Part shown: in pieces, positions 1-18,963 of the stretch | How positions within the stretch are numbered: the first letter of the stretch is position 1 | Layout: each line of letters opens with the position of its first letter | Source of the DNA: Promethearchaeota archaeon | Lineage (GTDB): Archaea; Asgardarchaeota; Lokiarchaeia; Sigyniarchaeales; SOKP01 | Assembly: GCA_019057795.1 (NCBI GenBank) | Contig: JAHLWS010000067.1 | Span: forward strand, 16,984-80,983 | DNA length: 64,000 nt | Direction of reading: 5' to 3' | Program-made: the position numbers and the translations under genes | Notes under the pieces: model-generated | Seen by the model: the letters and a program-made list of their open reading frames with translations, nothing else | Databases searched by the model: none | Told to the model about the DNA's origin: nothing

Positions 1-2232
1 TTTACTAAACCCTATACATAATAAACTATTGTTAATGTGGACACCATAATCTTCTAATCTATCCTTTAATAAAATACCATAAGCAGTGAGTTGTGGTAAT
101 GATCTATATATTTCATTCTCATCTTGTTTATAGTCGGCAATTATTAAGAACCCATTTATGAAAAGAATTATGTCAATATGACCAATATTAAATAAGCTTG
201 AATTTTCAATAGGCTTCCAAACTGGGGATTCAATTGCTATAGTATTATTATCATTTGTTATTATATAAGTCAAAATAGGTGGATGGTCTGGTTTTTTACC
301 TATTCTATTTTTTTTATAATGCTCAAAAACCTTTTGAACATATTTACACAAAAAAAAGGAAGAATCATATGCTTTTAATTCATCTTTAAAGAAATCTTCT
401 ATATATTCAAATTTTAAGTGCTCATCATAAGATCCATAAAATTTTAACATTGAGGCTCTGGGATTATCGTTAGACATGAATATATCACGAGGAAAGTTTT
501 CTCTCCAAAGATCATTAAGAAAGTTATAAAGCCCTAGTTTTAATTGATTATTATTAATGATATTTAAGCATTCTTCTTTCCATCTAAAAGGATATGTAAC
601 GCTTTGATGTTTAAAATCCCTTCGCTTTAATTCTTGTATATTATTAATCCAATCAATAAAGTATCTTTTATAATATTCTATATGATTTGCTCTTATAAAT
701 TCACGAATATTTTCAAAGGTATTAGGGTCACTGAATGATGTTTTATTTCGAATTACACGTAATACCCCGCTGGTTCCAGGTGTATTATGAATATATAATT
801 TATCTCCAAATTCTTTTGGCTCCATATCTAAAGATTGATATAATTCAAGTAAAAATTGAGTCTCAATATGATAAAATTCTTTTAAGGATTTTCTCATCAT
901 TTTAATAAAAGTTTCTCTACTATATATCTGCCCTTTATATCTTCCTAGATAATCTGCTATATAATCATATAACCGATTGCCGCTTCGATCATTCACATGA
1001 GTAAAATCAAATTCAGATCCAAAACATTGTTCTAATTTCATTGGCGTTGCCATATTCTCTAAGCCTTTCATCTTTTTAAATGTATAGTAAAGTAAAGAAA
1101 ATGCAAAATTCTGTGGAAAATAATAATCTATTTCGTTGTTTTTATTTATATCCAAAATTGGAAAATCGTTTACAATCGCATAATCAAAAATAGCCATTGC
1201 TTTTTCAATTGAATCATTAATATCAATTCTTAAATCAGAACTTAAATAAGATTCTAATATATTAATATATTGAGTTAAATAATTTTCTACCTTCTGTTGA
1301 TATTTATCTTGGTCTAAAACAAAATATTCTAACATAATTTGATGTAAAACCTCAGTAAAATTAGTACGCGGTATATTAAAGTTTTCATTTTCAAGTAACA
1401 AATCAAGAAAGTCCGTCTTGCTCAATTTAATATTTTTTTCATATTTTAAGAAAATAAAACACATAACCGCTGCCAGTATTTTTGGCTTCTTTTTTTTCAA
1501 ATCTGCAAAAAAATTCTGAAATTTATCAGCTCCTTCAATAGAATCAATAATGTCCCAAAGTGAATCAGAAATTTTTTCATAATCACCCTCCGAAAAGTTA
1601 ATTTCATATAGATTTCTACTATTCAGATAATTGATATATTTATCAATATATTTATTGGTTAATGCAAGATATTCATCTTCAGTTAACCTGTCTGCATTTA
1701 TTAGCTCAAGAATGAAATTATATTCAGGAATTCTTTTAAGATGGCTCGAAACTGTAGAACAAACTCGATTTAAACTTGATAAATTTAAATCCAATATATG
1801 TGCTAGCAATTTTCGCTCAATATTTTCACCTAATCTAGCAAAATTGAAGATAATTAAAGAAACGGCGACATAATTAGCGTTTTTAATATTACTGGGGCCA
1901 AAGCTCTGGTAGAAAAAAATAAATTTTTTATCTTCGTTGTCATATAAGATTGAATTTAAAATGTCGTCATACATTTGAATACATTCTTCTCGAAACACTT
2001 CATCTAAATTATATTTTAATTGTAAATTTAATGAACGCACATCTTTCGCAATAGAATCAAAAAGTTCATTTCTGTACTTCTGTGCATCGAGATTCTGGAT
2101 TTTTTGTGTTAATTTATCCTTTTGAATCAAAGTATTATCCCTATACAATTCAGAACCACATGAATTTATATTTTTACGACTAATTTTATTTCGATTTGGA
2201 TTTTGACAAGGAAATTTATCTTCTTTTCTCAT
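1..2232 (-). CDS. Large protein of at least 744 aa (3' end runs off the window): TFIIB/cyclin-like helical repeats plus a C-terminal RecB/Cas4-like PD-(D/E)XK nuclease
   Basis: Missing from the ORF track. Manual translation from ATG at 2232 (MRKEDKFPCQNP...) stays open to position 1. The C-terminal part reads AIESPVW...NIGHIDIILFINGFLIIADYKQ...SLPQLTAYG (E...GxID...DYK...QxxxY). N-terminal helices NANYVAVSLIIF / KPKILAAVMCFIF / FPQNFAFSLLYY resemble the TFIIB cyclin-box P..lAAa.lY helix. Confidence 0.7.
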   Translation of the reverse strand, partial: MRKEDKFPCQNPNRNKISRKNINSCGSELYRDNTLIQKDKLTQKIQNLDAQKYRNELFDSIAKDVRSLNLQLKYNLDEVFREECIQMYDDILNSILYDNEDKKFIFFYQSFGPSNIKNANYVAVSLIIFNFARLGENIERKLLAHILDLNLSSLNRVCSTVSSHLKRIPEYNFILELINADRLTEDEYLALTNKYIDKYINYLNSRNLYEINFSEGDYEKISDSLWDIIDSIEGADKFQNFFADLKKKKPKILAAVMCFIFLKYEKNIKLSKTDFLDLLLENENFNIPRTNFTEVLHQIMLEYFVLDQDKYQQKVENYLTQYINILESYLSSDLRIDINDSIEKAMAIFDYAIVNDFPILDINKNNEIDYYFPQNFAFSLLYYTFKKMKGLENMATPMKLEQCFGSEFDFTHVNDRSGNRLYDYIADYLGRYKGQIYSRETFIKMMRKSLKEFYHIETQFLLELYQSLDMEPKEFGDKLYIHNTPGTSGVLRVIRNKTSFSDPNTFENIREFIRANHIEYYKRYFIDWINNIQELKRRDFKHQSVTYPFRWKEECLNIINNNQLKLGLYNFLNDLWRENFPRDIFMSNDNPRASMLKFYGSYDEHLKFEYIEDFFKDELKAYDSSFFLCKYVQKVFEHYKKNRIGKKPDHPPILTYIITNDNNTIAIESPVWKPIENSSLFNIGHIDIILFINGFLIIADYKQDENEIYRSLPQLTAYGILLKDRLEDYGVHINNSLLCIGFSK

Positions 2233-2368
2233 GTTAATCTAACCCGTGTATATTAGGTATATCTAAATTAGAATGTATTAAGAACAAATCCTAATTCCTT
2301 ACGAAATTTTTATTCCTATTAATATTATTATCATGACCTTTTTAAATTTAAAGAAAGAATCTCAGAAA

Positions 2369-2623
2369 CTTATACTACTATAAACGATTACGATTTAATT
2401 TAAAATAATCTAACTATTTTATCTCTAATAAATTATAATTGCTTTATCTTTATAAATGTTTGCGTTATCCTTTTCTTCGATTTTGTCTTTAAATACAACT
2501 CAAAAAATTTAGAGAAAATCCAATTTTTACTAATATTCCGTAAAATAGGTAAATAGCTATAGCCAGAAAATACCTTATACTACTATAAACTATTTTAGCG
2601 TAAATATTTTATACTACTATAAA
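2369..2623. repeat. Three copies of the palindromic element TTATA-CTAC-TATAA(A)
   Basis: CTTATACTACTATAAAC at 2369-2385 and 2574-2590; TTATACTACTATAAA at 2609-2623. Confidence 0.85.
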
Positions 2624-2710
2624 GTATATTATATATTTTGAAAAATTATTTCAAATTAGAGATTTCAGAAAAGCTTTAAGGATTATAATATTGTTGTTTT
2701 CTTATAATTC

Positions 2711-3025
2711 TTATCTATACATACCTTCAAATTTCTTTTTATCAAATTCTTTAAGCCACTTTTCAGTTAACTCATTAACTGCGTATTTTAAATTCGATGA
2801 AATTTGACCTAAACTGAATCCATATAACATTGCATATCCTAGTAATTCAGGTAAGACAGTCTCGTGATTTTTTATTGAAAATTCCTTGAAATGATATATA
2901 TATTTTGAAAAGAATTGGTTTAATTGTTCCTTGGCGTTTTGGGGGATTTTATCTCTTATCAAAAGAAGAATATTATTAATAAATTGATTTTTAAGGTTTT
3001 CAAAATCAATATTAAATTCAGACAT
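2711..3025 (-). CDS. Hypothetical protein (104 aa, helical)
   Basis: ATG-started ORF with protein-like composition; no motif recognised. Confidence 0.6.
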   Translation of the reverse strand: MSEFNIDFENLKNQFINNILLLIRDKIPQNAKEQLNQFFSKYIYHFKEFSIKNHETVLPELLGYAMLYGFSLGQISSNLKYAVNELTEKWLKEFDKKKFEGMYR

Positions 3026-3267
3026 ATTTATTAATTTCTATAGTAAATAGTTAAGTTCTTAGGGAGATATGATTTATCAAAAAAAAAAATTTTTTTAAAT
3101 TAAATTTTTAAGATTAAATGTTATATTTTTTGTAAAAGAAATTAAAATGGTAAAAATTAAACATCTCTCATAATGAAGATTAGGAATCTATCGAAAAGAA
3201 AAATAATATAAGAAAATTTAGAAAAAAAGGTTATCTTTTTGGAGCATTCATCTATTCAAAAGGGGTT

Positions 3268-3756
3268 TCAAAAAGGTTTTTTTTCCAAGTCCAGGGCATC
3301 TGGGCTATCATGATTATGCATCTCTATTCCCAACCCTATATAAAGTAAACCCATGCCAAATAAGATATAATCGAATAAACCCCCCGTTTCCACATCAAGG
3401 TAAGTTATGTTTCCCGAATGGGTAGTAACTTGATGAAATCCCTCAATTAATTGTTGTGTAATTGGTGCTAGAAGCCCTCCTAAGAAAAATGTTGTTAAGA
3501 TCAGTATTCCTGAGAGAATGATCATTAGATCCGCTTTCACACATGTATGGTTTTGAAATTGATAGCGAAAAATGATTAATATTCCTGCGATAAAGGTAAG
3601 ATATGTTGGTGCTTTAAGGAATCCCCATAAAGTGCCTACATGATTAGATGGAGGTTCAATCTTATAAAATCCCAATGGAAGAATGAGTGCCATACATTGA
3701 AACACACCCATTAGAGTCACAATTCTTTCTGGATTTCTTTTCCCTGTCAATTTCAT
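3268..3756 (-). CDS. Hypothetical membrane protein (~4 TM)
   Basis: Four hydrophobic segments; GAGG-type RBS (GAGGGA) upstream of ATG. Confidence 0.7.
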   Translation of the reverse strand: MKLTGKRNPERIVTLMGVFQCMALILPLGFYKIEPPSNHVGTLWGFLKAPTYLTFIAGILIIFRYQFQNHTCVKADLMIILSGILILTTFFLGGLLAPITQQLIEGFHQVTTHSGNITYLDVETGGLFDYILFGMGLLYIGLGIEMHNHDSPDALDLEKKPF

Positions 3757-4016
3757 TTGTCCCTCATATAATTTATTTAATTCTAAATATCTTTGTAGTA
3801 AATATTATACCATCTCTATAAATGAACTTTCAAAATCTGGCATGATACTTCATATTTTAAAACGATTTTAATGTTAAGATTTCCCGTAATAATAATATTT
3901 ATTGAATTTATTTAATGTACAAATAACTTAACATTTAGTCATTTTTAATAAATAATCCTTTTTTTTTCTCATTAATCGCTTTCTCTCTCTGGTGTCCCAC
4001 CTTGGTGCACTCCTAA

Positions 4017-4628
4017 TTAATTAGTGGATTTACTAAACTTAACTTTTTTTTCCTTAAATAGAATAACTGAATGGTCAGCTTTCCAAGAAACTGTATCAAA
4101 CTCAACAATAATGATCTCTTCGCCCCCTTTCCCGTTCCAGTTGTTTATATCTTTCTTACGCTTATCTATGGATCTTTTGGTACCTAATATAACTTCAATA
4201 CCATTAGAATATTTCAAACGTGCATGAGTCTTAAACAATACTAGTTTTTTAAGATCTTCTTTTATATCATTCTTTGATCTGGTAGCTAACTTAAATTCAA
4301 TAACAGCGAGATTATTATCTGAATCTGGTGAGTGAATAATGAAATCTGGCGACTTCCCCTTCTTAAAATAATGTTGATATGTCTTATCCACTTCTGCTTG
4401 AATTATTGGTCCATCAAAATCCACATCACCATTTTGCATTAATTTTCGAAATTGTTGGTAAAACTCATAAGCGAAAGGTCTTTCTAAATGTTTGTCTTTA
4501 GATTTATCTTCAATAATAGGTTTTCGTTTTTTTTTTTTATTATAATCTATTTGTGACAATCTACAAGTATTTTTATCCATATTATCAAGAGCTAATTTAA
4601 TAGCTTCAACAACTTCTTTAATTACCAT
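4017..4628 (-). CDS. PD-(D/E)XK restriction-endonuclease-fold protein
   Basis: ERPFAYEFYQQ...EVDK...SPDFIIH...NLAVIEFK...EDLKKL motif series. Confidence 0.7.
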   Translation of the reverse strand: MVIKEVVEAIKLALDNMDKNTCRLSQIDYNKKKKRKPIIEDKSKDKHLERPFAYEFYQQFRKLMQNGDVDFDGPIIQAEVDKTYQHYFKKGKSPDFIIHSPDSDNNLAVIEFKLATRSKNDIKEDLKKLVLFKTHARLKYSNGIEVILGTKRSIDKRKKDINNWNGKGGEEIIIVEFDTVSWKADHSVILFKEKKVKFSKSTN

Positions 4629-5083
4629 TGGTTAACATCTCGAGTATATTTATAATGTATATTTTTGTCTTAATTTATAATAAACATAACAGAATATATC
4701 TTTTTCCCCCATTTTCTTCAATAATTGTTCTTTCGCTTCCCGTGTTACCCATCTAAATTACATATTCTTTATATCAGTTTATGTCTCATTTTATTATTAA
4801 AATTTAAAAACATTTCTAGAGTAGTTAAGTATATCTTAATATCAATTCTCTCCCCCGTGGTGCCCCCTCCTAAAAAATTAGGTTTAGAACGATCTCATTA
4901 ATAAAGAATAGATTAAAACATTAATAACCACTTTCGAATCTCTCAAGTATCGCTAAAACTATTAAATATATAATTCCTAATCTTGGACGGGATAAAGACA
5001 AGGAGAATATAGTTCAATATAATCCTGAGGAAGATAATGATTCTGAACAAATCTTTTTATACAAAAAGATCTAAATAATATAT

Positions 5084-5620
5084 ATGCCAAAAATTGATTT
5101 GGACAAATATCCAAAAATTGCTCAAATGCATGCATCAGCAGGTTGCATCCCCGTTAATATTGAAAATGCTCTGAAATATAATGGTGAAAAAGACTATGAT
5201 GAGCTAAAATTATTATTTTTTTGCCAAACTAGAAATATACCATTAGGTTTTAAAGAATTTGGTCCCGAACTAGCTAAAATCTTGAAAGGATTTAAAATTA
5301 TTTTCAAAAATATTGACGATTTTAATCACTCGATTGAGAAAGTTGTGGAGTATATTAAATCAAATATAGATGAAAAAATACCTGTATTGGTTTCCTTCAA
5401 ACAAGTAATAAAAGTTCCAATTATGGAGAAGAATAACCCTAAACCTATAGGATGGCAAGAAGCTGAAGTTGCTCATATCAGAACAGCAATCGAATATAAT
5501 GATTCTGAGTTATTCTTTTTTGATCCAGGAGATTGTGAAACGAAAAAGTATAGCTATTTAACTGATGAGTTTTCCAACATTATTAAGGGAGATTATCACA
5601 CCTTAGTTATCAAAAGATAA
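5084..5620 (+). CDS. Papain-fold C39-like cysteine peptidase
   Basis: AQMHASAGC (Q...C), PVLVSF, AHIRTAIEY (His), FFFDPG (DP): the usual C39-like catalytic layout. Confidence 0.65.
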   Translation: MPKIDLDKYPKIAQMHASAGCIPVNIENALKYNGEKDYDELKLLFFCQTRNIPLGFKEFGPELAKILKGFKIIFKNIDDFNHSIEKVVEYIKSNIDEKIPVLVSFKQVIKVPIMEKNNPKPIGWQEAEVAHIRTAIEYNDSELFFFDPGDCETKKYSYLTDEFSNIIKGDYHTLVIKR

Positions 5621-6093
5621 GATGAATGAAAATTGTTTATTTAATATCTTTTTTTTTATTTAATACTGAAAATAGGTCTACAGTATTCTTTCATTTCTTT
5701 TAGGAGGTCTGATGAGGGAAAAAATTTGTCCGTATCATAAAGTATAATTAATGAATTGAGAACTACAATGAATTTGTGATTTAAGATTTTAAACTCATCT
5801 TGAATCCTTACAAGATTTATGTTATATCATTGTAAGATAATTAAGTTTGAAATCATAATTCAATGATAATTTTGTATTTATAATAAAAAAAAATGAATCT
5901 AGTAATCAATAAATAAGATACATTATTAATTGAATATTTAGATTATTTAAGAGATATTAGCTATAAACTTCAACACCTAGATGCTAGAGTCAAGCAATCC
6001 GAAGCAGAAATGCTATTTCATAATACAATAAATATTATTAATATCCTTTATTTATAGACTACATTAATGATCATCTTCTTATCAAGATCTGCT

Positions 6094-9000
6094 TCATTTA
6101 ATTTCTTTTAATGAATCTGGGATTGAACAATTTGGAGCTACCTTAATAATGTAAAATTTTGGATTTAATAAAGTTAAATAATCATCTAATGAAATCTCAA
6201 TCTCCTTATCTGTATAGATTCTTAAATCAACGTTATTTTCATTAAATTTTTTAAGATCTTCTGGTAAAATTCTTAATTCTGGAAGCTCAACCCATAAATG
6301 TGTTAAATTGGATAACTCATGGAGGAAATCTGGAAATTTGCAATTAGGTTTTACCTTAATCTTGAAAGTACAAATATCTTTTGGATTCCAAAAATCATTT
6401 GAAAATTCAATAAATTTATCTGTTATGATCAATTGCTGTATTTGTTTGAAATGCATTAAATCTCTTGGTATTTGTTCAATAAACTCCATATTTACCTCAA
6501 GATAAATTAAATTTTTACATTCCTTAACAAAATAGGGAAAAAAATTATTGTTATCAATTCTTACATATGTAATTTTATCGAAATTACTCTCTAATAAATC
6601 AAAAAATCTACTTATTCTTGAACCTGAAACCCTTAAATGAGTAATGTTTTGAGTATTTGAAAATTGTATAGGTTTTCTATGCAAGATCGAAATTTCCATA
6701 CGATTATTTTTATTATCTTCCCAAAAATTTTCTTGGAAATCTTGAGAACCCCCGAATGAAATGTGTAGACACTTTACTTTTGGAAGATTTTTAATTAATT
6801 CTGGAATTTTATCTAATGGAGGATTTATCCAACGTATGTATGATAAATTTTTAAGATTCTCCCATGATTTTGGTAAGTCTTTTGCTGCTATATCATTTAT
6901 TTGAAGATGTGTTAAATTTTCTAATTTATTAAGCGATTCACTTAATATGCATCTTTCATTTACTCTAAGTTCTAATCTAAATTTAGTTTCTTTGATTCCA
7001 AATTCTCCAGTTAATTTACTTAATTCTTTAGATGTTATTAAAGTTTGATTAAATTGAGTCAAATTTCCAAGAAAATTTGGTAATTCTGTCAACTGAGAAA
7101 GAGAAATTCGAAGATGTGTTAACTTTTGCATGTAAATCTTATTTTTAGGGAATTTACAATCCTTTCTTACTCTTATCATAAAGTTCCCCTTATTATCATC
7201 ATCAAGAAAATTTTCTATAGGTGAAGGTAATTCTTTTTCTGTTATATATATCTTTTTAATATGAGATGAGGTAAATACCCATTCTTTTAAATCATTAATA
7301 GCAAGGTGATCTATTCTGAGGTTAATTAAATTTTTAAAATCATTTACTATATTCGGTAAAATAGTTTGGCCTCTTGAAAATCCGAATAAATATATTCCTT
7401 TCCCAGAAATCTTCCAAAAGTTTAATTTTTTAAAAAATTCTTTTGTAAGATTTTCTTGATTGGTGATTAGAAGCTTTTTTAATCTGCCATTAATTGATAC
7501 ATTTTTTGGGAATCTAGTAAGAACCTTAATCCATACTTTTTTAATATGAGAAGGAATAGTTAACTCATTTAATATGAATTGTGTATGGAGGTTAACTAGT
7601 ACTCGAGAACTATCTAATTGGTATTGATCCATATAATCATTGATATCTTCTAGATTTTGAGATATATTAATTAAAATGTTCTGAAACATTTCCCACTTAA
7701 ATACAATATCCGGTAAGATATTTGAGAATTGAGAATTGATGATTATCTCACTTAGTTTAGAGCAAGATTTTAAACTTTCAGGAAAATTAAATTTAAAGAA
7801 ATTTTCTATATAAATTGATTCAAGATTCTTTAATAAAGAAATTGATTCATGCAGATTCAGTACAAATTGATGACCTTTTACTAGAATATCAATTATTTTT
7901 AAATTTTTAATTGTAGAGTTTTTCCCAAATTTAATTAATTCTCCCTTAAGTTCTAAAGATTCTAATTCTTCTAAGGACCAAAATAGATCTTTAAATTCAA
8001 AATAGTTTTGCATTTCAAATATATTCAATAAACCCTTTGGTATTTTTAATGTTAAAGAACTAATATACTCATTAGAATTTGTAATCCCATAAGCAAATTC
8101 ACCAGAATAATCTTTTAAATGATTTAAATAATCAATAACAACAGCATCCTTAATTTTTAAATTAATTTTTTCTAGTTTTGGTGTTAATTGTCCTTTAATT
8201 TCTATTCTATCATCTACCATTAGTAAATTATCGTCAATATAATCAATAGATGGTAAAGTTTGCTTTTTTGGATGAAATGAAATATAAGTATTTTTCAATA
8301 AATTGACAAATTTAAGATCCTTGAATTCATGCCACCATGAGTTAATTGATTTTATATTGTTGTTTTGAATATTCATTCTATATAATCTGTCTAATTTTGT
8401 TAATGTATCTGGAAGTTCTTTTAATTCATTATATCCTAAATTTAGAATTTCTAAATTTTTTAATCTACCAATATCTTTAGGTAGTTTTGGTAATTCATTA
8501 TCTTGAAGATCTAATTTCTTTAAACCTATTAATTTATAAACCCCTTTGGGAATACTTTTTGTTTTCATATGATCTAAATATAATTCCGATACACGATCAT
8601 TAATATCAATCACATAACCTTGATGTCTCTTCAATTCTTCGAAATCTGAAAGATTTCTTAATCTATGATTTCCGATTTCAAATTCAATTTCTTCTAATGA
8701 ATTTGCATCGGATTTACAAATTTCAAATTCCTGAAATCTTTGTTTCAATTTAGAACTATAGTGTTCAATAAAACCTTGATATTCTTCTTGAAAGTAATAC
8801 TTAAATTGAGTCTTTGTTTTATCTATTTTTATAATACCACTAGAATAAATTACATCCCAACTTCCTTTTCTGTCATGTTTAAATTTACTAAGCTCATTAT
8901 CAAGAATGGGAGTATAAGGATCAGCAATAATACTAACTAAATCTTTGAAATCATTTTCTACAGTACCCACAATTCCCATTCTATTTAAAATAGTATTTTC

Positions 9001-10974
9001 ATTTTGGCGACTTTCGAAAAGATTATACCACTCATCTTCAGTTGGATTGAATTTTTTTTCGACTATATATACATTACTTTCAAATATTATTCTAATTATA
9101 AAAGGTTTCATCAATAATCTCTTTACAAGTTTATCCTTAACCTTTTCATAATTTATCCCATAATTTTCATTGATCTTTTTTAATCGTGCTAAATCTTTAA
9201 TATCTGAAAGAATATAACTTGTACCAGTAGGAATATCATTATCTTCAAAGTTATTGAATTTATCATTTTGAAAAATATACCGTTTATATTGTCTATAATT
9301 TCTGATTATTTCTTTAGTATTTATCCAATCTACTAATCTTGATGTTAATAATATAATTAGGTGCTCATAGTTCTTTTCTAAATCAATCAAATCACAGAGA
9401 TTATTTAGGAAATCTCCTCTCTCATCTTCAGTTAATTCCTCAAAACCGTCAAAGATTAGAAAGAGATCTCTTTTTTTTCTCTCATTAAATGCAAGTAATT
9501 TAGGTATTTTGCAAGAATCTTTATTAAATCCTCCTAATATATTTTCAAACCGATCTTCATATGAGCGAAGATGAAAATAAAAAGTTGGGATTTTCTTCTG
9601 CTTGATATATTCAAATGCGAGATATGATGCATTCCATGTTTTTCCCAATCCCATATGCCCTAATAATAAGAAAATTCTATTTTTTCCTTGGGGATTCTTA
9701 AGGGTTCTAAAAAAATTTTCAAAAATATTTTCAAGATCTGGGTCTTTTTCAAATAGATCTAGATTGAATCTAGTTTCGAACCTTGAAGCAAGATCTACTA
9801 ATTCTAACTGTTGTAAACAATAATTAAGTAAAACATCATCTTCAAATTCAATTATTTCATTATGATTTTTCGCTCTTAATCTCCATAAAGGTATCTTAAA
9901 ATTTTCAATAGTAAAATCAAGCTGACTCCTCCAATCTATGCTTTTTGTGTTTAAATTCCCTAATTTCGAAATCAGGCGTGAACTTATAACTTCAAAAAAT
10001 GAAGGATTTTTTTCATAATAGCCCTTAAGTAAACTTAATGTTTGAAATAATTTATCAAAAATTTTTTCTTTTTGAATAGTATTATCTTCATAAAAATTAA
10101 CTATCTCTGCTATAATTTGCGATACAATTTCTCTTAGTTCAGTAAGGCGGACTTTTTTAATTATTTCTTTTCTATTTGAGTCTTTTATCTTAATTTGAAG
10201 GAACTTGTCTAAATATTTATATAAGTTATTAATAAAAAGTATTTTATTATCTAAATTCAATGTGACTATGAAAATTATTGCCCATTCTACAGTATCTCGT
10301 AAATTTTTATCAAATTCTTCAAGAAATACTTGTTCTAAATTTATATTAAGAAAATCTTCTAATCCATTCTCAATTGTATTTGAATCCTTACAAAATAACT
10401 GATAATCATCTTCACCTATATTACTCTGTAATTTAATCTTTCTTATAGCACTTTTATATGCATTTTCAATTTTATTATTATTGCAAAAAACTTCATAAAA
10501 ACCTTCTGAAAATGTGATTGCGTGATTATCATAAATTTTCCGTTTGGTTCCCACCGAGCAAGGCAAAAATTCAGAGACTTTCTTGGCAATCTTTAAAGAT
10601 TCACAAGAATTAAAAATTACAATTTTAATATTATTTTTAAAATTTTTGAGGACATCAACAGTGTCTTCCAAAAGAAACTTAGAGTCATAAATTTCCTTAA
10701 AATGAACATCATCTTCAAAATAAAATCCACTGGATAATTCACCATGTCCAGCAAAATGGATCATTTGAGGTTGATATCGTGAGATATATTCAAAAAATTC
10801 ATTTCTTTCGGTGGCAAAAGCAGGTTCAAGATGAATAAATTCACGAAATGGTGACTTTTCTATTATTTTCTTAATTATCTTGAATTCTTTATCAATTCGA
10901 GTCTTAATCGTACTTTCTTTGAAATTTGCCGAAAGAAATAAAATGGTAAATTTCTTCTTTCTTAATGCCAACAT
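6094..10974 (-). CDS. NLR-like protein: CHAT (caspase-clan) protease - STAND/NACHT-like NTPase - leucine-rich repeats
   Basis: ILFLSAN...[10 protein letters not shown] (H77)...VIFNSCES (C124)...FSEGFY; Walker A [11 protein letters not shown] (G439, nt 9637-9660); Walker B [22 protein letters not shown] helical motif; LRRs from ~aa 795 ([38 protein letters not shown]) to the C-terminus. Confidence 0.9.
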   Translation of the reverse strand: [1626 protein letters not shown]

Positions 10975-11343
10975 TTTAATGATTTTTACATAAATAATTG
11001 AATGTAATCGACATTAATAAAATTCTAATAAATGTTTCTTATGTCTTTTGATTTTGAATTTCATTTATTAAAAATAATAATGACAATTTGCTTTATTATA
11101 TTAAATGATAATCTAACCTTATATATATTTAATTTTTAGAGGGAATTCATAGTTAATTTTTCTCTTTAATCGTTTTTAATAACGAACACATTATTCCTTT
11201 TTCAATTTTTCCTCAATAAATTTTAATCTAGGACAATGATGAACATCAGAAGCATAATCGCATTTTGGAAAAGAAATTTTTTCCGAGTCCTCAATTATTA
11301 TCATGGGATTAAAACAAATATATGTATGGATAGAAGTAGGTCT

Positions 11344-12672
11344 TTATACATCTAATTCTACTTTCTTTGAAAGGAATAACTCCCCAGTTCTTAATTTTAC
11401 AAATGCTTGTATTTTATATGGAGGTTTTACTTCTTCTGCATCTAAAAAATGAGTAAGTTGCATTTTATTAATCCTATGAAAAAATGATTTGGTGGGTTTT
11501 AAAAAATCATTTAGATTTTCATCAAGTTTAATATCAGAATTTATGTATATTCCAAATCTCCCCACTTCAAAAGGATAATTTCCAGTATTTTTAAATGCCA
11601 ATTCTAAAAAATCCAACAGTGATAAATGCATAGGTTCTAAAAAAGGAGAGGTTTTCAACATTTGTCTATATCCTTTTAGAGTTATCTCACAAAAAGGAAT
11701 CTCTCTTGGAATTTTTAGCTCATAACCATAAATAGAGAGGATATAATCTTTTAATTCCGTTAAAATTTCTACTATATGGCTGAAATTAGAATATAACAGT
11801 TTTTTACCTTCTTTTTGAATTTGGATTCTCGTACCTTCCATATATGAACTTGTCATGATAATATATTTTTCTCCAATGATGTCAATTTTATTAGAAAATC
11901 CTTTTCTTTTTTGAAAAATTTCTATACCAAAATAGATTTTCTCTTCAGAAAATCGCAAATCTTGTAATATTTGTTTTATCTCATCCACAGAGAGTCGATT
12001 TTTTGAAAGCTTGGATAAAAAGATTGCGAAACGATTGAAATAAGCTTGTAATTTAACATGTTGAGCTTCTGAAATAGAATCTCTAGGGTACGAAGAGCTT
12101 GTATCCTCTTTCCATTTGAGCTTGACTTGATTCAAGATTTCTTCGGCATAAGAGTAATTCTCAATCCATCGTATCTTTCTCTTGCCTTCTTTCTTAAGAT
12201 GTTGTAGTCGTTCTATGAACTCATATAGTCCCATTTGAGCTTTATATCCTAAATTAGAAAAATTTTCCTCTAAATAACCCTCATCATGTTTTCTGTGTTT
12301 ATGATACATTCCTGCTTGTGTAAAGGTATTCCGGTAAATGAATATCAAGATAGGTATATTTTCACGATGAGCTGTCATGAATTCTTCTTCGGTTATTGAA
12401 TATTTATAGGAACCATCAGGATATGTCTCGGAAGTATTATAAGGAATGCCATATCTCTCTTTCAAAACTAATATAAATCTATCGCATTTCTTTACATTTT
12501 CCAAGCATGTATCAAATGTATCCTCGTTTTCAACATCAAATCGTTTATGAAACCAAATAGGTTCATACTCTAATTCTGGTAATCGGCTTTCTAGGTGTTC
12601 TAATACATCCTTTACATCATCAGTACCTGCAAGAAAAACACATTCTTTTCTTTTTCTAGAATCATTCATCAT
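11344..12672 (-). CDS. DUF4062 (TIR/NDT-like) domain protein with an uncharacterised C-terminal region
   Basis: VFLAGT...YEPIWF...DTCLENVKKCDRFILVLKERYG...SITEEEFMTAHRENIPILIF is the DUF4062 signature, including the conserved Glu. Confidence 0.8.
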   Translation of the reverse strand: MMNDSRKRKECVFLAGTDDVKDVLEHLESRLPELEYEPIWFHKRFDVENEDTFDTCLENVKKCDRFILVLKERYGIPYNTSETYPDGSYKYSITEEEFMTAHRENIPILIFIYRNTFTQAGMYHKHRKHDEGYLEENFSNLGYKAQMGLYEFIERLQHLKKEGKRKIRWIENYSYAEEILNQVKLKWKEDTSSSYPRDSISEAQHVKLQAYFNRFAIFLSKLSKNRLSVDEIKQILQDLRFSEEKIYFGIEIFQKRKGFSNKIDIIGEKYIIMTSSYMEGTRIQIQKEGKKLLYSNFSHIVEILTELKDYILSIYGYELKIPREIPFCEITLKGYRQMLKTSPFLEPMHLSLLDFLELAFKNTGNYPFEVGRFGIYINSDIKLDENLNDFLKPTKSFFHRINKMQLTHFLDAEEVKPPYKIQAFVKLRTGELFLSKKVELDV

Positions 12673-12983: not shown

Positions 12984-13787
12984 TTATTCCAGTGATGACC
13001 ATTCCAATTCCATATAAAAATTTTGAAGAATCGATTTGAGGTAATCGATTCCAAGTCGATTTTCAGGAAAACGAGGAATGATATCCTTTATATTATTAAA
13101 CAGATAAGAATATCTTGGTTGTTTTTGTGCTTTTCCTGCTTTTTCTCTTTGGTTTTTTTTATAAATAGTTAAATTTTCTTTAAATTTCTTCGCATGACCA
13201 TCTGTAGCAAGTACAATAATCCAGTTGTCTCCTTCTTTTTCTAAGATTTCGATGCCACTATTTTTTAAAGAATCCTCATTTACTTCAAATAGATCATTAC
13301 CTTTTAACTCTTGTTCAATAATATGATTCCTATCTCTAACGGTCAAACATAATTGACAAATTTCATGATCTTTATCCTCGGTACACTTATTAAAATCAAT
13401 TGTATAGAATTTGTCTATGGCAGGGAATTCTTCTAAGGAAATCTGTCCTTCAGGTTCGATATTCTCGTGAAATGCGTTGGTAGGGCAAACCACGACACAT
13501 AGCATGCAATAACAGCATTTATCGTGATCAATAAAGAGTTTAGGGTTAGAATCGTCTAAGATATTTTGGGCAATCTCCGGAATTGGTCCTAGCTCTATAG
13601 CATCAACGGGGCAGACGAGTTTACATAAACTACATCCAATACATTTTTTAATGTCATAAGTTAAAACTTTCTTAACATCCTTATATTTCCAATTTAGAAC
13701 TAATTGATCTATAGCAATATCTAAGGTTTTCTCGATTTCCTCTTCTTTATCCTCGTCTAGTTTTTCTTTTGCTGAAGATTCAGTAAT
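12984..13787 (-). pseudogene. Truncated 4Fe-4S polyferredoxin (FwdF-like) fused in frame to an unrelated S8-peptidase N-terminal-like fragment
   Basis: The frame extends upstream of the listed ATG (13505) to ATT at 13787 after GGGAG, and encodes CIGCSLCKLVCP and CCYCMLCVVVCP. A third motif (C...EICQLC) is left incomplete at ~13320, where the sequence switches to GIEILEKEGDNWIIVLATDGHAKKFKENL...LFNNIKDI...ENRLG. Confidence 0.65.
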
Positions 13788-15272: not shown

Positions 15273-17588
15273 TTATTTATACAGTTCTTCAGGTGCTTTT
15301 GAATATTGATCGTGAATTTTTTTGGCTCTATCTGCTCCTTTAAGGATTTTTTCAAGTGCCTCATCGAAATCTGCTTTTGATATTACTACTTCATTAACTA
15401 ATTGAGACCGAATGTGTTTAATTTTCTCTTCTAATTCTTTTATGTCTTTATTACTAGCTTTTTCTGATTGTAATTGTCCTAGTTGAATATTATAATCCTC
15501 TATTTCTTTCCTCTTTTCGTTAAAGGCTGGAATAGCTCTTCTGATTGTCAATAATGTCGCTTCTTCACAAAGGGCTTGGATATCTGCACCAGTATAGCAC
15601 TCAAAAGCTTCAACTAAGCTCTCAATATTAACATTGCTTGCCAGTGGTTTATTTTCAAGGTGAATTTTTAATATAGCTTTACGTGATTCTAAATCTGGCA
15701 TAGAAACCTCAATATGTCTTCCAAATCTTCCAGAACGCAATAATGCGGGATCAAGCATATCAGGTCGATTTGTCGCAGCGAGTAAAATAACATTTTTTAA
15801 ATCTTCTAAACCGTCCATTTCGGTTAATAGTTGGGAAAGGACTTGATCAGTCACTTCTGAACCTGCAGACCGCCCTCTCACCCCTGCAATTGCATCGATC
15901 TCGTCAAAAAATATAATGCACGGAGCTGCTGATCTCGCTTTTCTAAATGTTTCTCTTACTGCCTTTGAACTTTCACCAACCCATTTAGATAGAAATTCTG
16001 GACCTTTCACTGAGATAAAATTGATTTCGGTTTCATGAGCTAAAGCTCTTGCTAATAGAGTTTTTCCAGTACCGGGGGGTCCAAATAATAAAATTCCACT
16101 TGGCGGTTTTGAAGATAAATGTTTATATAATTCAGGATACTTCAATGGCCATTCAATAATTTCTCTTAATTGTAATTTGGCATCTTCTAGTCCTCCAACA
16201 TCTTCCCAAGTTTCTGTGGGTTGGGAAATAATTACTTCTCTTAAGGCCGAAGGTTCGATGTTATTTAACGCCAAAGTAAAATTTTCCATTTCTATTTTTA
16301 TTGAATTTAAAATTTCAAAAGGAATTGGCTTGTCTAAATCTATTTTTGGAAGGATTTCTCTAATAGATAGCATCGCCGCTTCTTTAGCTAATGCTTCAAT
16401 ATCTGCACCTACAAAACCATGAGTTTTTTCTGCAATAGTTCTAAGATCCACATCATCATCTAACGGCATACCACGCGTGTGAATTTGTAATATTTCATAT
16501 CGACCGTGCGTATCAGGTACGCCAATCTCAATTTCTTTGTCAAATCTACCAGGCCTTCTTAGTGCAATATCAATATCGTTTACTCGGTTTGTTGCTCCAA
16601 TGACGATAATTTCGCCTCTTCCTTCTAAACCATCGAGTAAAGAGAGTAACTGAGCAACTACCCTTCTTTCAACCTCTCCAGTGACTTCCCCTCTTTTTGG
16701 GGCTATCGAATCTAATTCATCGATAAATATTATTGAAGGAGCGTTATTCTTAGCGTCGTCAAAAATATTCCTAAGGTTTTGTTCACTTTGTCCATAAAAC
16801 TTACTCATAATTTCAGGACCGCTAATTGTAATAAAATGAGCGTCAGTCTCGAAAGCTACCGCCCTTGCTAATAAAGTTTTACCCGTTCCTGGAGGACCAT
16901 AAAGCAAGACTCCCTTAGGAGGATCTATTCCTATTCTTTTGAACAATTCAGGATGTCTCATTGGTAATTCGATCATTTCACGAATTCTCTGAATTTCATC
17001 TTCTAATCCACCAATATCCTCATAGCTTACTCTTGATTTTTCTCTTTCTACAAGTTCTTTATGTGTTTTTTCGCTTAATCTAATTTTTGTTCCAAGATGA
17101 ATTCTGACCGCAATAGCCTTTGGTTCAAAATCTACGATTATTAAGTCGTATTTTTTACGATAATTCCAAAAGCTTATAACATCATCTTTAGTTATTACTC
17201 TATTTTCTAGTAACCTATTTAGTTGTCTAGGGCTAATTATAACTGGCTCTGTTAAACTTGCGAATACTACTTTGTCAGCCAAAATCGCTTCAATTTTACG
17301 AATCTCTACGTAATCATCAATCGTTACTTGTATATTCCTTCTTAAAGAAGAATCGAGCCTTAAGACACCAGTCCCTTTGTCTTCGGGTTTACCGGGATAT
17401 AATAATGCGGCTGTCCTTGACTTAGTTAAGGGGGCATATATCTCAATCGCATCACCATTCTTTAAGTTTAACTTGCGGGTTATATCAGGGTCAATTCTTA
17501 CTCTACCTTTGCCAGAATCTTCTTTGAATGCGTCTTTTACTCTTAACCTATTTTCTTTTCCTTCATAACCACTTGAAATCCCACTCAT
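15273..17588 (-). CDS. cdc48: CDC48/VAT family AAA+ ATPase
   Basis: N-terminal double-psi barrel, two AAA modules (GPPGTGKT twice, DELD/DEID, ATNR), C-terminal LYK. Confidence 0.95.
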
Positions 17589-18369: not shown

Positions 18370-18963
18370 CTATTCCATTAGAGAAATTAATTGCGATTTG
18401 TGTATTTTTTTAAATATTAAACCAATTAAATCTTCAAAAGACTCTACAACACCTACTCCTTGTATTGCGATAGTTTTTTTGATTTTAAAGTTCTTATGTT
18501 TAAAATAATTAATATTTTCTAAAAACTCAGAGGTATCAAATGTATCCGGTAAATCTTGTTTGTTAAACGCGAGGATTTTGGGCATTTTAATGAGATAGTC
18601 TCCGAAATAATTACATAATTCGTTCCAAGAAGTTAAATTTCTGTAGTAAACACTTTGCTGTGAGTCCGCTACAAAAATAATTCCATCGATAGCTTGTAGT
18701 GTAATTGGTCTTGTAATTATATAGAAATCTTGACCCGTTGTAGAATAAAGGTGTATTTTAAGGAGCCATTGTTGGTTTTTGAACGAAATGGTTCCGTAAT
18801 CAAAGAATAACGTTCTACCTACGCTACTCTCAATACTTAACACTTTATCCTTCTTTCCAAAATGATTAAAGAGCGATTTCATAGTGGTGGTTTTCCCTGA
18901 AAGTGCGGGACCAAAATAACAAATTTTTAATTGAATAGTTTGATTTAAATGATCTATTATCAT
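18370..18963 (-). CDS. MglA/Arf-like small GTPase
   Basis: GPALSGKTT, GRTLFFDY, TTGQDFY, NKQD. Confidence 0.85.
   Translation of the reverse strand: MIIDHLNQTIQLKICYFGPALSGKTTTMKSLFNHFGKKDKVLSIESSVGRTLFFDYGTISFKNQQWLLKIHLYSTTGQDFYIITRPITLQAIDGIIFVADSQQSVYYRNLTSWNELCNYFGDYLIKMPKILAFNKQDLPDTFDTSEFLENINYFKHKNFKIKKTIAIQGVGVVESFEDLIGLIFKKIHKSQLISLME

What the first reader, a model, noticed from the sequence alone, without database searches (positions are those of the whole stretch)
6094..10974. Single-chain caspase-NTPase-LRR receptor (an 'inflammasome in one gene') in a probable Asgard archaeon
Seen: a tripartite protein with an N-terminal CHAT domain whose caspase-clan dyad is intact (HG at His77, NSC at Cys124), a ~200-aa helical linker, a STAND/NACHT-like P-loop (GHMGLGKT, LIFDGFEE, LTSR, KPF) and ~830 aa of LRRs. 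Known: effector-NBD-LRR is the layout of animal and plant NLRs, and animal NLRs activate caspases through adaptors. Prokaryotic STAND defence proteins (Avs, bacterial NACHTs) mostly use TPR/WD or other sensors, and LRR sensors are uncommon there. Inference: LRR ligand binding, possibly of a viral protein, drives NTPase oligomerisation and proximity activation of the fused protease, leading to cell death. That would be an NLR-caspase immune module in the archaeal lineage closest to eukaryotes.
Basis: partly seen in the sequence, partly recalled or inferred. Interest (0 to 1): 0.92.

Follow-up and report, generated by a model that had tools for sequence, protein, structure and literature searches.

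The report
Asgard caspase-like STAND-LRR receptor gene
One intact 1626-residue gene of a Loki-type Asgard archaeon joins a caspase-like CHAT protease, an NLR-type ATPase switch and a long leucine-rich-repeat domain; this is a rare LRR-bearing archaeal version of the protease-armed "NLR-like" proteins already known from bacteria, probably a cell-suicide immune sensor, and there is no sign that it is an ancestor of eukaryotic inflammasomes.

Summary
Window 6094-10974 (-) is one intact 1626-aa ORF.

- **Protease (residues 5-206):** caspase-fold CHAT domain. Z is 25 to the solved SAVED-CHAT protease and about 14 to caspases. His77 and Cys124 sit on its proven catalytic dyad.
- **NTPase (about 396-780):** STAND module (NBD-helical-winged helix). 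Z is about 15 to CED-4 and NLRC4. The Walker B motif DGFEE is NACHT-type.
- **C-terminus (781-1626):** modelled as one long LRR solenoid, but only 794-905 is canonical LRR by sequence.

The host is Asgard, in the same GTDB order as Promethearchaeum syntrophicum.

The NTPase belongs to a STAND family found so far only in Asgard: 34 of 400 species genomes, usually with LRRs. Only 3 of the 400 also carry the CHAT domain. The gene sits in an AT-rich island whose neighbours differ in a congener, so it looks like a one-gene module. PADLOC does not detect it.

The defence mechanism (ligand, then oligomer, then protease activation) is inferred by analogy and not shown.

CHAT-STAND-repeat proteins are long known in bacteria and NLR-type systems have been reported in Asgard. 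I therefore class it as a new variant of a known kind. Nothing indicates ancestry to eukaryotic NLRs or caspases.

Earlier agents of this scan noted caspase-STAND-LRR genes in two other Asgard genomes.

The parts
6094..10974 (-). Whole gene, 1626 codons plus stop: CHAT, helical region, STAND NTPase, LRR
   Evidence: ORF list and translation. The intact ortholog in G253 is 84% identical with dN/dS 0.30.
10357..10962 (-). CHAT (caspase-fold, clan CD) protease domain, residues 5-206
   Evidence: phmmer to 8tl0 at E 1.2e-12. VIA Z 25.0, rmsd 2.3 over 194 residues to 8tl0; Z about 14 to caspase-3/6/7/8, MALT1 and legumain. Many relatives score above the Pfam CHAT cut-off.
10744..10746 (-). Codon of His77, predicted catalytic histidine (HFAGHG)
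   Evidence: Aligns with H375 of SAVED-CHAT, whose H375A/C422A mutant is dead. His in 33 of 36 aligned homologs.
10603..10605 (-). Codon of Cys124, predicted catalytic cysteine (FNSCES)
   Evidence: Aligns with C422 of SAVED-CHAT. Cys in 40 of 44 aligned homologs.
9790..10356 (-). Family-specific all-helical region, residues 207-395 (about 8 helices), no recognised homolog
   Evidence: AF2 secondary structure at high pLDDT. Conserved in relatives that lack CHAT (alignment A4). The PDB profile search returned only designed or coiled helical proteins. The Atlas feature search found nothing usable.
8635..9789 (-). STAND NTPase module (NBD, helical domain, winged helix), residues 396-780
   Evidence: Pfam NPHP3_N above cut-off; nSTAND3 and NACHT below. 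VIA Z 15.0-15.6 over 306-317 residues to CED-4 and NLRC4; Z 14-14.5 to Dark, NRC4 and EfAvs5. Family alignment A3.
9637..9660 (-). Walker A, GHMGLGKT, residues 439-446
   Evidence: G, G, K, T and W are invariant in the 23-member family alignment.
9436..9459 (-). Walker B, LIFDGFEE, residues 506-513 (family consensus DGFDE, the NACHT-type D-G-x-acid-acid form)
9337..9339 (-). Codon of Arg546 (LTSR), sensor-1-like arginine
   Evidence: Invariant in family alignment A3.
8260..8595 (-). Canonical leucine-rich repeats, residues 794-905
   Evidence: Pfam LRR_14 at 58 bits and LRR_8 at 34 bits, both above cut-off. Strict LRR motif at 818, 841 and 864.
6097..8634 (-). Whole C-terminal LRR-type solenoid, residues 781-1626. 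Degenerate beyond residue 905, with a beta-rich insertion near 896-980.
   Evidence: AF2 model at pLDDT 78 with alternating short strands and helices. Foldseek matches to RGFR1, FLS2, TLR3/8 and SHOC2 over 630-950 columns at E 1e-10 to 1e-7.

Best explanation
This is a single-gene, NLR-like conflict (antiviral or abortive-infection) sensor.

Shown:
- A caspase-fold CHAT protease with an intact His77/Cys124 dyad.
- A STAND NTPase with intact Walker A, Walker B and sensor-1 residues.
- A C-terminal LRR-type solenoid of about 850 aa.
- All three lie in one polypeptide that is under purifying selection.
- The gene lies in a variable AT-rich island of a Lokiarchaeial Asgard genome and has no conserved partner gene.

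Inferred by analogy with Avs and bNACHT proteins, with the Apaf-1/CED-4 and NLRC4 assemblies, and with SAVED-CHAT (whose CHAT domain becomes active only on oligomerisation):
- The LRR domain holds the NTPase in an off state until it binds an invader-derived ligand.
- Nucleotide-dependent oligomerisation then brings the N-terminal CHAT domains together and activates them.
- Proteolysis of host or viral proteins stops growth or kills the cell.

The substrate and the trigger are unknown.
For: - **Domains and catalytic residues:**
- **Functional gene:** the ortholog has the same length and dN/dS is 0.30. The NTPase is most constrained, at 0.17.
- **Patchy distribution, typical of defence genes:** CHAT plus NTPase occurs in 3 of 400 species genomes of the phylum and in 2 of the 42 genomes of its own genus, G000 included. 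The NTPase family occurs in 34 of 400 genomes and 24 of 85 genera.
- **One-gene module:** against congener G253 only the gene block 5854-11179 aligns (89.7% nt). The flanking genes are replaced. No neighbour is shared with two more distant loci.
- **Island context:** GC is 25-28% over 1-12000, against 28-38% in the rest of the window. Neighbouring genes here and at the homologous loci carry nuclease, DUF4062, DUF4365 and metallophosphatase-TPR (PADLOC PDC-S60) domains.
- **Relatives of the CHAT domain:** they occur in bacteria fused to NACHT, NB-ARC, TIR, Roc-COR-LRR, kinases and effector-associated domains.
- **Precedent for activation by oligomerisation:** SAVED-CHAT (10.1101/2023.06.23.546230).
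- **Precedent for caspase-like effectors in defence:** type IV Thoeris (10.1101/2024.10.24.620036, abstract) and proteases of bacterial gasdermin operons fused to NACHT, LRR, TPR or WD40 (10.1101/2021.06.07.447441).
Against: - There is no experimental or direct computational evidence for a ligand, oligomerisation, protease activity or toxicity.
- PADLOC models do not recognise the protein, so it belongs to no validated defence family.
- The LRR region shows no excess of amino-acid change over the other domains (dN/dS 0.27-0.37), unlike many fast-evolving immune sensors.
- The CHAT domain is the least constrained part (dN/dS 0.60).
- Relatives without a CHAT domain exist (for example Promethearchaeum syntrophicum WP_147663738.1), so the protease is not essential to the family's function.
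- Asgard genomes hold many LRR and GTPase signalling proteins, so a non-immune role is possible.
- Expression evidence is one contig of a 95%-identical allele in a metatranscriptome library. DNA carry-over is not excluded.
Confidence: 0.6

Rival explanations
1. It is a non-immune regulated-proteolysis switch. The same architecture would sense an endogenous protein or stress signal through the LRRs and cleave a cellular target, for differentiation, cell-cell interaction or stress-induced death rather than virus defence. HetF-type CHAT proteases of cyanobacteria work this way.
For: The LRR region shows no sign of diversifying selection. Asgard genomes hold many LRR-bearing signalling proteins, and the NTPase family members are annotated only as LRR proteins. 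There is no PADLOC hit. No virus-derived trigger is known.
Against: The gene is present in only 2 of the 42 genomes of its own genus and 3 of 400 in the phylum. It lies in an AT-rich island with swapped cargo. A housekeeping or developmental regulator would be expected to be conserved and syntenic.
Confidence: 0.2
2. The CHAT domain is not the death effector. It would act on the protein itself (self-processing or release) or only modulate it, and the conserved helical region 207-395, shared with CHAT-less relatives, would be the real output domain, for example a membrane-active or adaptor bundle like the CC domain of plant NLRs.
For: CHAT-less relatives start directly with the helical region (P0008, P0009). 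The helical region is conserved across the family. CHAT is the least constrained domain (dN/dS 0.60). Kaur et al. 2020 propose auto-proteolytic effector release for caspase-fused conflict proteins (PMC7159879).
Against: The helical region has no detectable similarity to any known effector or adaptor. The catalytic dyad is kept in all CHAT-bearing members. No cleavage site is known.
Confidence: 0.13
3. It is a direct evolutionary forerunner of eukaryotic NLR-caspase machinery (inflammasome or apoptosome) inherited from the Asgard ancestor.
For: It has the same functional layout (protease, NBD, LRR) and occurs in the archaeal lineage closest to eukaryotes. Leao et al. 2024 noted that some eukaryotic NACHT proteins may share ancestry with Asgard proteins (PMC11291487).
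Against: The fusion occurs in 3 of 400 Asgard species genomes. The CHAT domain is closest to bacterial CHAT (Z 25) and far from caspases (Z 14, about 10% identity). The NTPase is equally distant from NACHT (NLRC4), AP-ATPases (CED-4, Dark), plant NB-ARC and even ORC/Cdc6-like ATPases (Z 14-15.6). In eukaryotes the caspase is recruited through adaptor domains and is not fused. Urbach and Ausubel 2017, as cited, conclude that NBS-LRR arose independently in plants and animals.
Confidence: 0.04

Closest known systems
Bacterial 'all-in-one' NLR-like proteins with an N-terminal CHAT or caspase domain, a NACHT or NB-ARC NTPase and TPR/WD40/HEAT repeats (Koonin and Aravind 2002; Leipe et al. 2004; Dyrka et al. 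2020, 10.1101/2020.01.06.895854; Kaur et al. 2021, PMC8195603)
   Same: Same order of parts: caspase-fold protease, STAND NTPase, repeat sensor. The CHAT domain is homologous: relatives P0041 and P0052 (CHAT-NACHT) and P0070 (NACHT-HEAT-CHAT) were found with this protein as query.
   Different: The sensor here is LRR, which Dyrka et al. say prokaryotic NLRs typically lack. The NTPase belongs to a divergent family found only in Asgard in my searches, and it scores below the Pfam NACHT cut-off. The host is an archaeon.
SAVED-CHAT of Haliangium ochraceum, a type III-B CRISPR-associated protease (PDB 8tl0; Steens et al., 10.1101/2023.06.23.546230)
   Same: It is the closest solved relative of the protease domain (E 1.2e-12; Z 25.0; dyad aligned). 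Its CHAT domain is activated by oligomerisation of an attached sensor.
   Different: Its sensor is a cA3-binding SAVED domain that forms filaments, not a STAND-LRR unit. It cleaves a dedicated partner (PCaspase) encoded nearby, whereas no conserved partner gene exists here.
Avs (antiviral STAND) and bNACHT defence proteins of bacteria and archaea (Gao et al. 2022 and Kibby et al. 2023, from my own knowledge; EfAvs5 structure 9jap)
   Same: They are single-polypeptide STAND sensors: N-terminal effector, NTPase, C-terminal sensor. They are activated by ligand-induced oligomerisation and are patchily distributed in defence islands. EfAvs5 matches the NTPase at Z 14.4.
   Different: No PADLOC (Avs, NLR) model matches. 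Those sensors are mostly TPR-like or unique domains rather than LRRs. No trigger is known here.
Protease partners of bacterial gasdermin operons (CHAT or C14 fused to NACHT, LRR, TPR, WD40 or Roc-COR; Johnson et al., 10.1101/2021.06.07.447441)
   Same: A caspase-like protease is fused directly to sensor-type domains, LRRs included. The authors propose direct coupling of ligand recognition to cleavage. An LRR-Roc-COR-CHAT relative (P0097) is among the homologs of this CHAT domain.
   Different: No gasdermin-like or other conserved substrate gene lies next to this gene. The switch here is a STAND ATPase, not a Roc GTPase.
Animal inflammasome and apoptosome (NLRC4/NAIP with caspase-1; Apaf-1, CED-4 or Dark with caspase-9, CED-3 or Dronc)
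   Same: The same logic of sensor repeats, STAND oligomerisation module and caspase-fold protease. The NTPase superposes on CED-4 and NLRC4 at Z 15-15.6 over more than 300 residues, and the protease on caspases at Z about 14.
   Different: The protease is fused rather than recruited through CARD or death-fold adaptors. It is a CHAT-type protease, not a C14 caspase. Sequence identity is about 10%. There is no evidence of common descent of the assembled architecture.

Membership tests
CHAT / clan CD caspase-hemoglobinase-fold proteases | Caspase-like alpha/beta fold | tested here: met
   AF2 pLDDT is above 90 over the domain. VIA Z 25.0 (rmsd 2.3, 194 aa) to SAVED-CHAT 8tl0; Z 13.8-14.5 to caspases-3/6/7/8, MALT1 and legumain.
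CHAT / clan CD caspase-hemoglobinase-fold proteases | Catalytic His then Cys dyad at the ends of the conserved strands (H-G and x-C motifs) | tested here: met
   His77 and Cys124 align with H375 and C422 of SAVED-CHAT, whose double mutant is inactive. They are conserved in homologs.
CHAT / clan CD caspase-hemoglobinase-fold proteases | Score above the Pfam PF12770 gathering cut-off (24 bits) | tested here: inconclusive
   19.9 bits in hmmscan of the protein. 23.3 bits, or 25.4 with neighbouring segments, in the genomic-frame search, which is flagged as over the cut-off. This short form of CHAT covers only profile positions 108-267.
CHAT / clan CD caspase-hemoglobinase-fold proteases | Proteolytic activity | not testable with these tools
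   Needs a biochemical assay.
STAND NTPases | P-loop NBD with Walker A GxxxxGK[ST], Walker B and a sensor-1 arginine | tested here: met
   GHMGLGKT 439-446, LIFDGFEE 506-513 and R546. All are invariant in the 23-member family alignment.
STAND NTPases | NBD followed by a helical domain and a winged-helix domain, as in Apaf-1, CED-4 and NLRC4 | tested here: met
   VIA alignments span model residues 376-780 against CED-4 (Z 15.6), NLRC4 (15.5), Dark (14.2), NRC4 (14.5) and EfAvs5 (14.4). Caveat: Orc/Cdc6-like ATPases score nearly as high (14.6-14.7).
STAND NTPases | Fusion to C-terminal super-structure-forming repeats and an N-terminal effector | tested here: met
   LRR solenoid at the C-terminus and CHAT at the N-terminus.
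NACHT clade of STAND | Walker B aspartate followed by a tiny residue and then acidic residues, D-[GAS]-x-[DE]-[DE] (Koonin and Aravind 2000, from my own knowledge) | tested here: met
   DGFEE here, and DG[FL]DE in nearly all family members.
NACHT clade of STAND | Score above the Pfam NACHT (PF05729) or related NPHP3_N (PF24883) cut-off | tested here: inconclusive
   NACHT scores 15.2 bits against 26.7 (not met). NPHP3_N scores 27.2 against 24.8 (met, but only profile positions 114-164 align). nSTAND3 scores 19 against 27.2. No NBD phylogeny could be made.
Avs / bNACHT ('NLR') defence systems as defined in PADLOC | Match to a PADLOC-DB v2 model | tested here: not met
   No PADLOC family matched at E up to 1.
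Avs / bNACHT ('NLR') defence systems as defined in PADLOC | Protection against viruses, with a trigger-dependent response | not testable with these tools
   Needs a virus-host or co-expression assay.
EACC1-caspase two-gene system (Kaur et al. 2020, PMC7159879) | Co-oriented 5' gene for a small single-TM EACC1 protein directly upstream of the caspase-fused gene | tested here: not met
   The 369-bp upstream spacer holds no co-oriented ORF with a TM helix. The only minus-strand ORFs are 37 and 23 aa and lie outside the block conserved with G253. I did not run an EACC1 profile.
Bacterial gasdermin-protease operons | Adjacent gasdermin (substrate) gene | tested here: inconclusive
   No neighbour has a gasdermin-like Pfam hit and no neighbour is conserved across loci. 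Bacterial gasdermins are hard to detect by sequence, and I did not fold the neighbours.
Eukaryotic NLRs (NBD-LRR receptors), as a clade | NBD nested within the metazoan NACHT or plant NB-ARC clades | not tested
   No reference alignments were available for a phylogeny. Structural Z scores do not discriminate between the clades.

The most novel reading that the evidence does not exclude
The NTPase defines an Asgard-restricted, NACHT-like STAND family that habitually carries LRR sensors. That would be a further origin of NBD-LRR receptors, independent of plants and animals. Its CHAT-fused Lokiarchaeial subclade would be a self-contained 'apoptosome in one chain', in which ligand-driven oligomerisation directly switches on a caspase-fold protease in an archaeon.
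Probability: 0.35. Interest if true: 0.7.

Novelty: new variant of a known kind. Interest (0 to 1): 0.5.

Why it matters
If the inferred mechanism holds, the gene shows that the receptor-switch-protease logic of animal inflammasomes and apoptosomes was assembled again in Asgard archaea, in one polypeptide and with an LRR sensor. The literature I read says prokaryotic NLR-like proteins typically lack LRR sensors.

The gene also marks a STAND-LRR family that current defence-finding tools do not detect: PADLOC misses it and NCBI names members only 'LRR protein' or 'hypothetical'. Published counts of Asgard immune genes may therefore be too low.

A CHAT-less member is encoded by the cultured Promethearchaeum syntrophicum MK-D1, which offers an experimental entry point.

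The gene does not, on present evidence, bear on the origin of eukaryotic immunity.

Tried and rejected
- **PADLOC and NCBIfam:** PADLOC found nothing. NCBIfam gave only generic LRR similarity to Xop effectors, far below the cut-offs.
- **NTPase against PDB by sequence:** the NTPase alone gave no significant hit. The family profile A3 gave only marginal hits: ORC4 at 0.009 and NLRC4 at 0.07.
- **Helical region 207-395:** the PDB profile search returned designed helical proteins, which I treat as compositional noise. The Atlas feature search gave nothing usable.
- **Word-indexed search with the CHAT region among long proteins:** it found only two close relatives.
- **Conserved partner genes:** none were found. 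The DUF4062 gene upstream is absent from the homologous island of G253.
- **EACC1-like small upstream gene:** none.
- **N-termini of CHAT-less relatives:** no significant Pfam domain, so effector swapping within the family could not be documented.
- **Internal super-repeats in the LRR half:** self-BLAST found none.
- **Promoter and terminator scan:** at chance level, and the sigma-70 model does not apply to archaea.
- **Read laying:** only contigs were available. One metatranscriptome contig covers 8806-10194 at about 95% identity, which does not prove transcription. The parts without cover mean nothing.
- **Literature:** no paper held Asgard, NLR, CHAT and LRR together, and none held Lokiarchaeota, LRR, STAND and NTPase together. 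Kibby et al. 2023 is not in the library.
Full report
**The gene**

Window 6094-10974 on the minus strand is one uninterrupted ORF of 1626 codons. It lies in DNA of about 25% GC, where stop codons are frequent. A congeneric genome (G253) has an ortholog of exactly the same length with no gaps. It is 84% identical in protein, with dN/dS 0.30 overall: 0.17 in the NTPase, 0.27-0.37 in the LRR parts, 0.42 in the helical region and 0.60 in the protease domain. So this is a real gene under purifying selection.

**N-terminal domain**

Pfam CHAT scores just under its cut-off (19.9 against 24 bits; 25.4 bits in the genomic-frame search). Residues 11-191 nevertheless match the solved SAVED-CHAT protease of Haliangium ochraceum (PDB 8tl0) at E 1.2e-12. 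In that alignment His77 and Cys124 fall on chain residues 355 and 402. The same offset of 20 places both on H375 and C422, the dyad whose double mutant is inactive.

An AlphaFold2 model of residues 1-780, built on a 50-sequence alignment, has mean pLDDT 91 and pTM 0.82. Residues 5-206 superpose on 8tl0 at Z 25.0 (rmsd 2.3 Å over 194 residues), and on caspases-3/6/7/8, MALT1 and legumain at Z about 14. The dyad is kept in nearly all aligned homologs.

A search of 1.84 billion representative proteins gave 8738 hits at E up to 1e-3, most of them to this domain. Many of these relatives pass the Pfam CHAT cut-off. They occur fused to NACHT, NB-ARC, HEAT, TIR, Roc-COR-LRR, kinases, pentapeptide repeats and effector-associated domains, mostly in cyanobacteria.

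**Central NTPase**

Pfam gives NPHP3_N just above cut-off, with nSTAND3, nSTAND5 and NACHT below. In the model, residues about 376-780 form an NBD, a helical domain and a winged helix. They align over 306-317 residues with CED-4 (Z 15.6) and NLRC4 (15.5), and with Dark, NRC4 and the bacterial SIR2-STAND protein EfAvs5 at Z 14-14.5. Archaeal Orc/Cdc6-like ATPases score almost as high.

The family alignment has an invariant GK[T]W Walker A, a DG[FL]DE Walker B and an invariant sensor-1 arginine. From my own knowledge of Koonin and Aravind 2000, a Walker B of the form D, tiny residue, x, acid, acid is the hallmark of NACHT. I therefore call the NTPase STAND with confidence and NACHT-like with reservation. 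I could not make an NBD phylogeny.

**C-terminal region**

Pfam sees canonical LRRs only at 794-905. A strict LRR motif occurs four times and a relaxed one sixteen times. The AF2 model of 760-1626 (pLDDT 78, 12-sequence alignment) is nevertheless one long strand-turn-helix solenoid with an insertion near 896-980. Foldseek aligns 630-950 columns of it with the LRR domains of RGFR1, FLS2, TLR3/8 and SHOC2 at E 1e-10 to 1e-7. The statement 'about 830 aa of LRRs' is therefore right at the level of predicted fold. By sequence, most of the region is degenerate.

**Helical region 207-395**

The region is confidently modelled as about eight helices. It is conserved in relatives that lack the protease. 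It has no detectable homolog, so its role is unexplained.

**Organism**

The locus of genome G143 encodes, letter for letter, WP_147663738.1 of Promethearchaeum syntrophicum. The genome tool labels G143 'same order' as the window's genome. All named relatives of the NTPase family come from Promethearchaeota/Promethearchaeia, Njordarchaeia or Odinarchaeota, or from the Loki's Castle sediment metagenome. 'Asgard, Loki-type' is therefore confirmed, which agrees with earlier notes of this scan.

**Distribution**

- Among 400 species genomes of the phylum, the query 1-760 is covered end to end in only three: the window's genome, G253 (84% identity) and G212 (40%, another genus of the same family). 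All other matches cover either the CHAT part or the NTPase part alone.
- The NTPase profile finds the family in 34 of 400 genomes and 24 of 85 genera, in open frames of about 650-1600 aa.
- Of the 14 members I scanned with Pfam (the CHAT-bearing ones and CHAT-less relatives), all but P0021 carry LRRs, and one also carries TPRs.
- In the public protein sets the full architecture forms only about half a dozen clusters at 50% identity, all from sediment metagenomes.
- The window's genome has one member of the family, plus one other CHAT-like ORF on contig 65.

**Context**

Positions 1-12000 have 25-28% GC, against 28-38% in the rest of the window. Against G253, only three blocks align:

- the nuclease gene at 1-2625 (85% identity);
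- the NLR-like gene with about 200 bp on each side, 5854-11179 (89.7%);
- a ferredoxin-gene remnant at 13321-13749 (81%).

The genes between these blocks are replaced. In G253 a metallophosphatase-TPR gene (PADLOC PDC-S60) and an unknown 312-aa gene take the place of the four small ORFs and the DUF4062 gene seen here. Two more distant loci (G212 and an ENA contig) share no neighbour at all. One of them has a DUF4365 gene and a PD-(D/E)XK gene nearby. No small co-oriented membrane-protein gene lies upstream.

The gene therefore behaves as a self-sufficient module carried in a variable island. An earlier agent described what appears to be the same kind of island in another genome, as defence cargo inserted into a polyferredoxin gene.

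**Mechanism**

What is shown is the anatomy. The mechanism is inferred. By analogy with Avs and bNACHT proteins, with the Apaf-1/CED-4 and NLRC4 assemblies, and with SAVED-CHAT (whose CHAT domain becomes active only on oligomerisation), the most likely sequence has three steps:

1. The LRR solenoid keeps the NTPase closed.
2. A ligand, probably from an invader, releases it, and nucleotide-dependent oligomerisation clusters the CHAT domains.
3. The active protease cleaves cellular or viral proteins and stops the infected cell.

I give this 0.6. The main alternatives are a non-immune proteolytic switch (0.2) and a model in which the protease only processes the protein itself while the helical region is the output (0.13). 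Direct ancestry to eukaryotic inflammasomes is unlikely (0.04). The fusion is confined to a small Lokiarchaeial subclade, the protease is bacterial-CHAT-like, and the NTPase is equidistant from all STAND clades.

**Novelty**

- Caspase or CHAT domains fused to STAND NTPases and repeats are long known in bacteria.
- Proteases fused to NACHT, LRR, TPR or WD40 domains accompany bacterial gasdermins.
- NLR-type systems have been counted in Asgard.

New here are the LRR sensor on a prokaryotic STAND protein, which Dyrka et al. describe as atypical, the STAND family so far seen only in Asgard and missed by PADLOC and by NCBI naming, and the CHAT fusion within it. I found no paper describing this. 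Earlier agents of this scan had already noted caspase-STAND-LRR genes in two other Asgard genomes. I class it as a new variant of a known kind, with interest 0.5.

**Expression**

Near-identical or related DNA occurs in sediment and cold-seep metagenomes of several studies. One metatranscriptome library holds a 1392-nt contig covering 8806-10194 at about 95% identity. That is a weak hint that a close allele is transcribed, and no more.

Noticed in passing
window 1-2625, 5854-11179 and 13321-13749, against L021 (G253:C227): The island has a conserved backbone and swapped cargo. The backbone is a 744+-aa nuclease gene, the NLR-like gene and a ferredoxin-gene remnant. In G253 a 938-aa metallophosphatase-TPR protein (PADLOC PDC-S60, E 8e-24) and an unknown 312-aa ORF replace the small ORFs and the DUF4062 gene of this window.
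   Followed up: partly
window 11344-12672 (-): A 442-aa DUF4062 protein (Pfam E 1.8e-12) lies 369 bp upstream and is co-oriented. It is absent from the homologous position in G253, so it is probably separate cargo and not a partner of the NLR-like gene.
   Followed up: partly
L004 (G143:C1:2310692-2312377), equal to WP_147663738.1: The cultured Promethearchaeum syntrophicum MK-D1 encodes a 1083-aa member of the same STAND-LRR family. It starts with the helical region and has no CHAT domain, and is annotated only as an LRR protein. It is a possible experimental handle.
   Followed up: partly
G000:C65:148165-148644 (+): A second CHAT-like ORF in the same genome, in an 865-aa open frame (Pfam CHAT 23.1 bits, or 32.6 with neighbouring segments). 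I did not examine it.
   Followed up: no
window 4017-4628 (-) and 5084-5620 (+): The 203-aa ORF has a weak PADLOC PD-Lambda-3_A match (E 2e-5). The 178-aa ORF has a weak Peptidase_C39_2 match (23.3 against 24 bits). Neither is conserved in G253.
   Followed up: no
window 18370-18963 (-) and 15273-17588 (-): Core-genome neighbours outside the island are an Arf/Ras/Roc-like small GTPase (197 aa) and a CDC48-type double AAA ATPase (771 aa). The small GTPase fits an Asgard host.
   Followed up: no
L023 7401-7754 (-) and L024 354-707 (-): In the 41%-identical relative (P0159), a 117-aa orphan gene lies divergently just upstream in both independent contigs, and a 597-aa DUF4365 gene lies just downstream. 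This window has no counterpart to either.
   Followed up: no
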